A stretch of DNA of 64,000 nt from Escherichia phage EC.P1, in the sequence record PQ657772.1, one strand, 5' to 3'. The notes beneath the pieces were generated by a model that ran no database searches, had not been told where the DNA came from, and saw nothing but the letters and a program-made list of their open reading frames with translations. Shown piece by piece: positions 5,858 through 6,836 of this stretch (position 1 is its first letter; each line of letters begins with the position of its first letter). Position numbers and translations under genes: made by a program.

Positions 5858-6211
5858 ATGAATCAATATAATACTATTCCACCATTTATCACGGTAGTTC
5901 AGTGTGATGGTAAAACTTTCATTGGTATTATCAAGATAAAAAGTAAACAGTATACTACTCTTTACTGCTTTGATGATATGGATGAACCAATGCAAGATGA
6001 ATTGTTGGGTATAGCACATGATTGGTGGTGGCAAAGCAACAGGTCAATTCCAGTCTGTCTATTCTTCCAAGAAGAGATGGAGAAATTTGAACCTTACACA
6101 CAGAGATTCGATACCCCTGCGGTGAATTTCGTTTGTGGTCCAGTAGTTTCTTTAAGTGATTTGCCACAAAAACGCATCAAGCGTCGTAATGTGGCTCTTA
6201 AGAAGAAGTAA
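5858..6211 (+). CDS. hypothetical protein (117 aa), opposite strand to surrounding block
   Basis: Fills a ~400-bp gap between minus-strand genes; preceded by TATAAAT-type late promoter motifs. Confidence 0.35.
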   Translation: MNQYNTIPPFITVVQCDGKTFIGIIKIKSKQYTTLYCFDDMDEPMQDELLGIAHDWWWQSNRSIPVCLFFQEEMEKFEPYTQRFDTPAVNFVCGPVVSLSDLPQKRIKRRNVALKKK

Positions 6212-6836
6212 GATGTTCAACTAAAGCGTTAAGTTGAACTACAATCATTAAGCTGTATGCATAAGCATGTGGCTTTTTGAAATATCGTAACTTATTTCCT
6301 GCTTGGTCTGTGCCAATAGTACTGTAATCCCATATAGTGGATTCAACTTCACTCCATGTATTCATACTTTGGCACTGCCTTTTTCCAGGACGAATCATTG
6401 CAATAAACATTGCAAGTTCATCAATGGATTTAGGTTTCCACACATTTAATAATGTAACGTGTTTTTTAATCTGTGAAAGATGTTCAACTATTTCTGGTTC
6501 TAACAGAAGATCCCAATTAGGTTCCTGATTCATTAGTTCTTTTAAATGTGCTCTATCACGAACATACTGGTAAGCCGATTGTGACAGGATATCTACCTTT
6601 TGATATCCCAAGCGTTCGGCTTCTTTATATTGTATGCTGGCTAAACCAGTGATAGGGTCAATTGGTATATTATCAAAATGAACACCACTGTTATGGGGGA
6701 TTAAACCATCCTCCGTAATTTTTTCTGTACTTCGCACACAAGGAAGCTGTGCAATCACTGACTTACTATCTTTAAAGTCAATGTCGATATCTGTTCGTGC
6801 TTTACGGTACGAATTAGAATTTGTCGAATCCTGCAT
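6198..6836 (-). CDS. hypothetical protein with DnaE (C-family polymerase) palm-like motifs
   Basis: Motifs TDIDIDF, KVDILSQ, AMIRPGK, KPHAYAYS in the same order and similar spacing as DnaE PDFDVDF / KFDFLGL / FRPGP / KSHSAAYA (recalled from memory). Confidence 0.45.
   Translation of the reverse strand: MQDSTNSNSYRKARTDIDIDFKDSKSVIAQLPCVRSTEKITEDGLIPHNSGVHFDNIPIDPITGLASIQYKEAERLGYQKVDILSQSAYQYVRDRAHLKELMNQEPNWDLLLEPEIVEHLSQIKKHVTLLNVWKPKSIDELAMFIAMIRPGKRQCQSMNTWSEVESTIWDYSTIGTDQAGNKLRYFKKPHAYAYSLMIVVQLNALVEHLTSS

What the first reader, a model, noticed from the sequence alone, without database searches (positions are those of the whole stretch)
6198..6836. 212-aa ORF carrying DnaE (C-family polymerase) palm-like motifs
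The translation contains, in order and with roughly DnaE-like spacing, TDIDIDF (cf. catalytic PDFDVDF), YQKVDILSQ (cf. KFDFLGL), AMIRPGK (cf. FRPGP) and KPHAYAYSLM (cf. KSHSAAYALV). A free-standing, miniature Pol-beta-like palm in a phage that already encodes a family B polymerase would be unusual; it could be a nucleotidyltransferase, a polymerase remnant, or a primer-synthesis accessory factor. The motif comparison is from memory of DnaE and could be coincidental.
Basis: inference. Interest (0 to 1): 0.65.

Follow-up and report, generated by a model that had tools for sequence, protein, structure and literature searches.

The report
Half of a split mini-Pol III
This 212-aa jumbo-phage gene really is a miniature relative of the bacterial replicative polymerase DnaE, but it is only the metal-binding and finger half of a two-piece enzyme whose other half lies about 31 kb away, and this split mini-polymerase was already described computationally in 2021, though I found no biochemical test of it.

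Summary

The protein is not a complete free-standing palm, because it lacks the GS NTP-binding subdomain. In the 99.8%-identical phage fEgEco12, a separate 172-aa gene supplies that subdomain (Pfam PF07733, above threshold). It lies ~31 kb away on the same strand, outside this window. The two halves co-occur across jumbo-phage genera, and rare natural fusions join them in DnaE order.

PHP, thumb, clamp-binding and OB domains are absent. A family B polymerase and a T4-type replisome are encoded alongside. Iyer et al. 2021 (PMC7824862) already described this "split minimal Pol III alpha" of group 2.2 jumbo phages, and PHROGs and GenBank label it "DNA polymerase". I found no biochemistry.

Verdict: observation confirmed, interpretation supported, already known. 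It is probably a distributive accessory DNA polymerase.

The parts
6198..6836 (-). Gene for the C-terminal (Mg2+-binding palm strands plus reduced fingers) subunit of the split minimal Pol III alpha; 212 aa
6777..6791 (-). Codons for D16-I-D18-I-D20, the DxDxD catalytic strand; counterpart of E. coli DnaE D401-x-D403-x-D405
   Evidence: All three Asp invariant in A1 and A2. Same alignment column as PDFDIDF of PHP-containing DnaE fragments. In fused P0182 this motif aligns to E. coli DFDVD 401-405 at E 3.5e-6. Catalytic role of D401/D403 taken from PMC8485763.
6591..6599 (-). Codons for K80-V-D82; counterpart of DnaE K553-F-D555 (third catalytic Asp)
   Evidence: K80 and D82 invariant. hhalign pairs GYQKVDIL with GLVKFDFL 549-556, a weak score but collinear. 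Model has a beta-strand at 81-85.
6381..6392 (-). Codons for R149-P150-G151-K152; finger motif matching DnaE R639-P-G-P
   Evidence: R149, P150 and K152 invariant. Pfam PF17657 DNA_pol3_finger weak hit over residues 129-162, repeated in 11 of 31 family members. HMM alignment to Mtb DnaE1 and hhalign to E. coli DnaE.
6255..6278 (-). Codons for K187-K-P-H190-A-Y-A-Y194; start of the long C-terminal helix, matching the DnaE 'O-helix' N-K758-S-H760-S-A-A-Y764 with the presumptive steric-gate His
   Evidence: K187, H190 and Y194 invariant. Aligned to Mtb DnaE1 FNKSHAAGY. H760 as steric gate, invariant in Pol III alpha: PMC8485763.
24213..27218 (-). Context, not part of the enzyme: the co-resident family B DNA polymerase (1001 aa), presumably the main replicase
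   Evidence: PF03104 E 1e-22 and PF00136 E 3e-21; annotated 'DNA polymerase' g356 in fEgEco12.

Best explanation
The ORF encodes the C-terminal catalytic subunit of a two-piece, minimal C-family (Pol III alpha / DnaE-like) nucleotidyltransferase typical of Rak2/121Q-like and other 'group 2.2' jumbo phages. This subunit supplies the three metal-binding aspartates (D16, D18, D82), the neighbouring lysine K80, and a cut-down finger module (R149-P150, K187, H190, Y194). A separate 172-aa protein supplies the N-terminal palm subdomain with the GS triphosphate-binding motif; in the near-identical phage fEgEco12 its gene lies ~31 kb away on the same strand, outside this window. The break falls in the loop between the GS helix and the DxD strand, so the two proteins must associate non-covalently to rebuild one Pol-beta-like active site (inferred). 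The enzyme has no PHP domain, thumb, clamp-binding or OB domain and no built-in proofreading. It keeps the histidine matching the DnaE steric gate. The most likely activity is therefore short, distributive, dNTP-dependent DNA synthesis (gap filling, primer extension or repair) as an accessory to the family B replicase encoded in the same module (inferred; untested).
Against: I found no biochemical data for any family member. On its own the C-half fails every curated threshold: PF17657 scores 13.7 against 22 bits, PF07733 gives no hit, NCBIfam gives none, and single-sequence PDB search gives none. hhalign against a single E. coli sequence gave only 2% probability. Association of the two halves is inferred from co-occurrence and fusions; it was not modelled or measured. 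Without a thumb and with about 80 finger residues missing, stable primer-template binding is uncertain, so templated DNA polymerase activity is not assured. The partner gene was located in a 99.8%-identical genome, not in the window itself.
Confidence: 0.85

Rival explanations
1. The two halves do form an active nucleotidyltransferase, but it is not a templated DNA polymerase. It could be a terminal transferase acting on DNA ends, or an enzyme that makes or modifies nucleotides as part of host takeover or counter-defence.
For: The Pol-beta-like NTase superfamily includes many non-polymerase enzymes (PMC11646218). The thumb, clamp-binding domain and about 80 finger residues are missing. No activity data were found.
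Against: Structure matches are exclusively to C-family DNA polymerases and cover both palm and fingers. The finger motifs that contact the incoming dNTP in DnaE, including the steric-gate His, are invariant. Both genes sit among replication and recombination genes. There are no matches to defence-system models.
Confidence: 0.1
2. One reading: a free-standing miniature palm that works alone as a nucleotidyltransferase, without a partner.
For: All three metal-binding aspartates lie within this one 212-aa protein, and it folds confidently on its own.
Against: It lacks the GS NTP-binding subdomain found in DnaE at 361-368. That subdomain is encoded separately and co-occurs genus for genus. It is fused upstream of the DxD strand in two lineages.
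Confidence: 0.03
3. An inactive relic of a captured dnaE gene, kept as a structural or regulatory replisome component or on its way to being lost.
For: Massive domain loss relative to DnaE; the gene is split; it falls below curated family thresholds.
Against: Every catalytic and nucleotide-contacting position tested is invariant down to 41% identity. dN/dS is 0.04. The family has 789 clusters at 90% identity and 272 representatives at 50%. A pseudo-enzyme would be expected to lose the acidic triad.
Confidence: 0.02

Closest known systems
Split minimal DNA polymerase III alpha of group 2.2 jumbo phages (Iyer, Anantharaman, Krishnan, Burroughs & Aravind 2021, Viruses 13:63, PMC7824862); PHROG 11778 (C-half) and PHROG 11127 (N-half)
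   Same: This is that enzyme. It is a phage-specific protein of ~200 aa with the Mg2+-binding and template-binding part. A separate N-terminal NTP-binding protein is encoded at a distance. It accompanies a family B polymerase and a T4-like replisome and has no other Pol III domains.
Bacterial C-family replicases: DnaE (E. coli Pol III alpha; Taq 2hpi/3e0d; Mtb DnaE1 5lew/7pu7) and PolC (3f2b)
   Same: Pol-beta-like palm with the DxD...D triad, the RPG finger motif and the K-x-H O-helix. These are the top structural matches.
   Different: 212 aa (384 aa with the partner) against ~1160 aa. No PHP domain, thumb, beta-clamp-binding domain, OB fold or tau-binding domain. The palm is split across two polypeptides. 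The host genome is a phage that also has a family B replicase. Only 15-19% identity in structural alignments.
African swine fever virus Pol X (minimal X-family polymerase)
   Same: By analogy only: a large virus carrying a drastically reduced Pol-beta-fold polymerase. [quoted passage not shown] From my own knowledge, it is used for short-gap repair synthesis.
   Different: Different family (X, not C), a single polypeptide, no detectable sequence relationship to this ORF, and biochemically characterised.
Two-polymerase bacterial replisomes (Bacillus PolC + DnaE)
   Same: Possible functional analogy: an accessory C-family polymerase extends primers or fills gaps beside a main replicase (from my own knowledge of the field; see also PMC13082043 listed).
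   Different: Here the main replicase is family B, and the accessory enzyme is tiny, split and untested.

Membership tests
C-family DNA polymerase (Pol III alpha / DnaE / PolC) | Pol-beta-like palm with the catalytic Asp triad (E. coli D401, D403, D555) | tested here: met
   D16, D18 and D82 invariant. DxD aligned to D401/D403 through fused P0182. KVD aligned to KFD 553-555. Triad identity from PMC8485763.
C-family DNA polymerase (Pol III alpha / DnaE / PolC) | N-terminal palm subdomain with the GS NTP-binding motif (E. coli GRGSGAGS 361-368) in the same polypeptide | tested here: not met
   The ORF starts 15 residues before the DxD strand. The motif (GLGRGSSVAS) is in a separate 172-aa protein encoded ~31 kb away in fEgEco12, outside the window. 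No copy is detectable in the window.
C-family DNA polymerase (Pol III alpha / DnaE / PolC) | Finger domain with the RPG motif and the K-S-H O-helix (steric-gate His760) | tested here: met
   R149-P150 and K187/H190/Y194 invariant and collinear with Mtb DnaE1 and E. coli motifs. The finger is reduced: 39 residues against 119 between the two motifs.
C-family DNA polymerase (Pol III alpha / DnaE / PolC) | Overall 3D similarity of palm plus fingers | tested here: met
C-family DNA polymerase (Pol III alpha / DnaE / PolC) | N-terminal PHP domain | tested here: not met
   No PF02811 hit in the C-half, the N-half or fused P0182. The PHP domain is present in the bona fide DnaE fragments P0283/P0284.
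C-family DNA polymerase (Pol III alpha / DnaE / PolC) | Thumb domain inserted between the DxD strand and the third-Asp strand | tested here: not met
   Only 64 residues separate D16 and K80, against 152 in E. coli. The model shows a beta-hairpin and one short helix there. That the thumb is what is missing is inferred from spacing and secondary structure.
C-family DNA polymerase (Pol III alpha / DnaE / PolC) | C-terminal beta-clamp-binding, OB-fold and tau-binding domains | tested here: not met
   The protein ends 18 residues after the O-helix motif, whereas E. coli DnaE continues for ~400 residues.
C-family DNA polymerase (Pol III alpha / DnaE / PolC) | Passes curated profile thresholds (Pfam PF07733 / PF17657; NCBIfam DnaE models) | tested here: not met
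   PF17657 13.7 bits against a cutoff of 22; no PF07733 hit; no NCBIfam hit. The N-half does pass PF07733 (36.4 against 23.9).
Split minimal Pol III alpha of group 2.2 jumbo phages (Iyer et al. 2021) / PHROG 11778 | Full-length match to the phage family of ~200-aa C-terminal units | tested here: met
   PHROG 11778, E 2e-106, residues 10-211 on profile positions 2-197 of 197. 789 homologues of ~190-217 aa.
Split minimal Pol III alpha of group 2.2 jumbo phages (Iyer et al. 2021) / PHROG 11778 | Separate N-terminal NTP-binding unit encoded elsewhere in the same genome | tested here: met
   fEgEco12 g421 (PHROG 11127, E 4e-85; PF07733) lies ~31 kb from g381. Both halves were located in 121Q, PBECO4, Turkey3, RaK2, GAP32, CBB, PA5oct, Xoo-sp13, SCTP-2 and a Vibrio phage. 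This was shown in a 99.8%-identical genome, not within the window.
Split minimal Pol III alpha of group 2.2 jumbo phages (Iyer et al. 2021) / PHROG 11778 | Co-resident family B polymerase and T4-type replisome (gp32, UvsW, DnaB-like helicase, clamp) | tested here: met
   PolB at 24213..27218. Annotated primase, helicase, UvsW-type helicase, RecA, UvsY-like protein, gp32 and clamp in the same 40 kb.
Split minimal Pol III alpha of group 2.2 jumbo phages (Iyer et al. 2021) / PHROG 11778 | Heterodimer formation and DNA polymerase activity | not testable with these tools
   No experimental report found. No multimer prediction tool was available.

The most novel reading that the evidence does not exclude
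The two-piece enzyme is a fully active, dNTP-selective DNA polymerase with a dedicated role at the fork (for example extending primers or finishing Okazaki gaps). These phages would then have a mixed family B + family C replisome. At ~380 residues in two chains it would be the smallest C-family polymerase, and close to the ancestral catalytic core from which cellular Pol III was built, rather than a reduced copy of a captured bacterial dnaE.
Probability: 0.15. Interest if true: 0.8.

Novelty: already known. Interest (0 to 1): 0.35.

Why it matters
C-family polymerases replicate bacterial chromosomes, are antibiotic targets, and have an unresolved origin. Every characterised member is a multidomain protein of ~900-1400 residues. 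A naturally minimal core of ~380 residues in two chains would be a tractable system for asking what a Pol III active site needs in order to work. If active, it would also show a replisome that combines bacterial-type and archaeo-eukaryotic-type polymerases. The idea was published in 2021 as a computational prediction. What remains open is the biochemistry, not the identification. For genome annotation, the C-half fails Pfam and NCBIfam thresholds and is still labelled 'hypothetical', 'putative membrane protein' or similar in many records, so consistent naming would help.

Tried and rejected
(1) Single-sequence phmmer of the ORF against PDB gave no hit; profile and structure methods were needed. 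(2) hhalign of the family profile against one E. coli DnaE sequence gave a sensible alignment but only 2% probability, so I used it only for residue mapping. (3) I searched for the N-terminal half inside the 64-kb window, using phmmer with the N-parts of fused P0182 and P0235 plus GS-motif regular expressions on all six frames. Nothing was found; the partner lies outside the window. (4) Promoter and terminator scan of 5600..9900 gave 26 promoter-like sites against 20.4 expected and 3 terminator-like sites against 1.9, which is uninformative. (5) PADLOC defence models gave no hit for either half or the fusion, so a defence or counter-defence NTase assignment has no support. (6) NCBIfam gave no hit for the C-half. 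(7) Supplements of Iyer et al. 2021 are not held, so I could not cross-check their accession numbers; identity with their 'C-terminal unit' rests on the matching description. (8) I looked for extra Pol III pieces among the immediate upstream genes (109, 236, 281, 165 and 142 aa). There were no Pfam polymerase domains, and the PHROG families are of unknown function or 'virion structural protein'. (9) Later literature (PaBG paper, Sharanji paper, the 2024 NT-fold survey, the 2026 bacterial polymerase census) does not treat this enzyme.

Full report
OBSERVATION. The ORF is real. The ORF listing gives an ATG-initiated ORF at 6198..6836 on the minus strand, 212 aa. Its translation contains TDIDIDF (15-21), YQKVDILSQ (78-86), AMIRPGK (146-152) and KPHAYAYSLM (188-197). 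The order is the same, but the spacing is much compressed: 64 residues against 152, 69 against 86, and 39 against 119. The "roughly DnaE-like spacing" is therefore the one inaccurate detail.

SOURCE AND CONTEXT. The window is 99.8% identical to Escherichia phage fEgEco12 (375 kb) and ~83% identical to 121Q and PBECO4, which are Rak2-like jumbo phages. In fEgEco12 the ORF is g381, annotated "DNA polymerase"; in phage Turkey3 it is "DNA polymerase III subunit alpha"; many other records call it hypothetical. It sits in a T4-type replication and recombination module. Primase and a DnaB-like helicase lie on one side. A UvsW-type helicase, a DnaQ-like exonuclease, UvsY-like protein, RecA, gp32, the clamp and a 1001-aa polymerase lie on the other.

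IS IT DnaE-LIKE? Direct profile searches on the ORF are weak. Pfam gives only PF17657 DNA_pol3_finger at E 0.04, below threshold. PDB phmmer gives nothing and NCBIfam gives nothing. PHROGs places it squarely in phrog_11778 "DNA polymerase" (E 2e-106) and weakly in phrog_405, a full-length DnaE-type family. The family is large: 789 clusters at 90% identity and 272 representatives at 50%, almost all 190-217 aa.

In a 31-sequence alignment reaching 41% identity, the invariant positions include D16, D18, D20, K80, D82, R149, P150, K152, K187, H190 and Y194. A profile of that alignment finds only one PDB sequence, M. tuberculosis DnaE1. The score is weak (E 2.2), but the match falls in four collinear segments lying on MPDIDIDF, the RPG region and FNKSHAAGY. 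Eleven of the 31 members weakly hit PF17657, and no other Pfam family recurs.

THE MISSING HALF. Iyer et al. [quoted passage not shown] The ORF matches the C-terminal unit.

I verified the partner independently. Two longer library hits are natural fusions (P0182, 375 aa; P0235, 336 aa). Upstream of the DxDxD they carry GVGRGSSSASLLLF...IDPIKY...FI, the counterpart of DnaE GRGSGAGSLVAY...LDPLEF...FERFL. Using the N-part of P0182 as a tblastn probe, I found the N-half in fEgEco12 at 261600..262118 (g421, "DNA-pol3-alpha domain-containing protein"). This 172-aa protein passes Pfam's curated threshold for PF07733 DNA_pol3_alpha (36.4 against 23.9 bits). It belongs to phrog_11127 "DNA polymerase" and ends ...GLGRGSSVASYCLFLIDLHMVDSLKYKLDVNEFLKW. 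The break therefore falls in the loop that in DnaE joins FERFL(388) to PDFDVDF(400).

The gene lies ~31 kb from the C-half on the same strand, about 25 kb beyond the left edge of this window. No copy is detectable inside the window.

LINKING EVIDENCE.
- In fused P0182 the PF07733 match (E 5e-16) runs from residue 97 to 207, across the junction and the DFDID motif.
- P0182 matches E. coli Pol III alpha 319-417 at E 3.5e-6 against all of PDB, with GRGS and DFDVD aligned.
- In alignment A2 the window protein's D16/D18/D20 share columns with P0182 D191/D193/D195 and with PDFDIDF of PHP-containing DnaE fragments.
- The fused protein's AlphaFold model (pLDDT 84) hits only DnaE and PolC in its top 17, with E down to 2e-8 and TM ~0.56, and the next hit is at E 2.9.
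- The two halves co-occur. The C-half is in 95 phage records and the N-half in 100, with matching genus counts: Escherichia 33/33, Pseudomonas 11/11, Salmonella 8/8, Erwinia 8/8, Xanthomonas 4/4, Yersinia 4/4. The extra N-half hits are ordinary phage DnaE genes.
- The arrangement varies with lineage but stays on one strand. In Rak2-like phages and a Vibrio phage the C-half lies ~29-33 kb upstream of the N-half. The gap is ~43 kb in PA5oct and ~116 kb in SCTP-2. In Xoo-sp13 the gap is ~14 kb and the order is reversed.
- Of 284 retrieved proteins, 240 are split-type with the DxDxD in the first ~20 residues. Only two separate lineages are fused.

IS IT FUNCTIONAL? Against 121Q the gene is 87% identical in DNA but differs at only 10 of 212 residues. 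dN/dS is 0.042 at dS 0.79, which indicates strong purifying selection. All catalytic positions are invariant. D401/D403/D555 are the E. coli catalytic residues, and H760, in the finger O-helix, is the presumptive steric gate against ribonucleotides and is invariant in Pol III alpha (PMC8485763). H190 occupies that motif. This favours a dNTP-using enzyme over a primer-synthesising one, but the point is an inference from alignment.

WHAT IS ABSENT. There is no PHP domain. There is no room for a thumb, with 64 residues in place of 152; the model shows a hairpin and one helix there. About 80 finger residues are missing, and nothing follows the O-helix, so there are no clamp-binding, OB or tau-binding domains. 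The five genes immediately upstream carry no recognisable polymerase domains. There are no defence-system matches.

MECHANISM. Shown: homology to the Pol III alpha palm and fingers, an intact catalytic constellation, a separately encoded complementary subdomain, co-occurrence, natural fusions, purifying selection and a replisome context. Inferred: the two proteins dock to rebuild one active site. Also inferred: lacking thumb, clamp tether and proofreading, the enzyme performs short distributive DNA synthesis (gap filling, primer extension or repair) beside the family B replicase. [quoted passage not shown] ASFV Pol X, which PMC11646218 describes as a minimal Pol X with only the NT fold and fingers, is a useful analogy.

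RIVALS. A non-templated or non-polymerase NTase remains possible (~0.1). A stand-alone palm (~0.03) and an inactive relic (~0.02) are poorly supported. Chance resemblance is excluded.

NOVELTY AND SCORE. However, the enzyme was described in 2021 and is already labelled "DNA polymerase" in PHROGs and in several GenBank records, so it counts as already known. I found no experimental follow-up in the held literature, so its activity and role remain open. Interest is 0.35.

Noticed in passing
window 5858..6211 (+) versus 5955..6167 (-): The + strand 117-aa ORF, which is convergent with the C-half gene and overlaps its 3' end by 14 nt, matches phrog_11637 at E 6e-55. Turkey3 and 121Q annotate it. 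fEgEco12 instead annotates a 70-aa minus-strand ORF (g382) that has no PHROG match and is probably a miscall.
   Followed up: partly
window 11171..11989 (-): A stand-alone DEDD/RNase T-type (DnaQ-like) exonuclease, 272 aa (PF00929, E 1e-14). It is annotated 'exodeoxyribonuclease X' in fEgEco12 and 'Pol III subunit epsilon' in Turkey3. It could in principle proofread for the exonuclease-less mini-Pol III, but the PHP domain, which (from my own knowledge) is where epsilon docks on DnaE, is absent.
   Followed up: no
window 16246..18548 (-): In fEgEco12 the large terminase (gp17-like) is annotated as three consecutive overlapping ORFs (g369 445 aa, g368 ~113 aa, g367 228 aa). This suggests a split or frameshifted terminase gene.
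   Followed up: no
window 4823..6034 (-) and 6814..7143 (-): Two genes labelled 'virion structural protein' (phrog_14467, and phrog_14909, a coiled-coil 109-aa protein) are interleaved with replication genes and flank the C-half gene. The 109-aa gene overlaps the C-half start by 23 nt. The start of the 4823..6034 ORF is uncertain: the PHROG match begins at residue 79 of the TTG-initiated ORF, and Turkey3 annotates a shorter CDS.
   Followed up: no
P0182/P0270/P0271 (locus L005:519-1649) and P0235, metagenomic: Natural single-chain versions of the mini-Pol III (336-376 aa) occur in two separate lineages. Their closest relatives are split C-halves (51-59% and 33-38% identity). They are ready-made constructs for testing activity without having to reconstitute a heterodimer.
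   Followed up: partly
L004:3989-4507 (fEgEco12 record 261600..262118), outside the window: The first ~70-90 residues of the N-half lie outside the PF07733 match. They are missing from the PA5oct, Atu_ph07, Xoo-sp13 and SCTP-2 matches, and the corresponding region of the fused model has low confidence (pLDDT 52-61). It is a lineage-variable N-terminal extension of unknown role.
   Followed up: no
phage collection hits H60, H84, H106: Both halves also turn up in records well under 200 kb: Alishewanella phage Slickus01 (142 kb, C-half), Klebsiella phage phiKp_21 (86 kb) and Escherichia phage IA-38 (94 kb), the last two carrying the N-half. Some of these may be partial genomes, but the enzyme may not be strictly confined to jumbo phages.
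   Followed up: no
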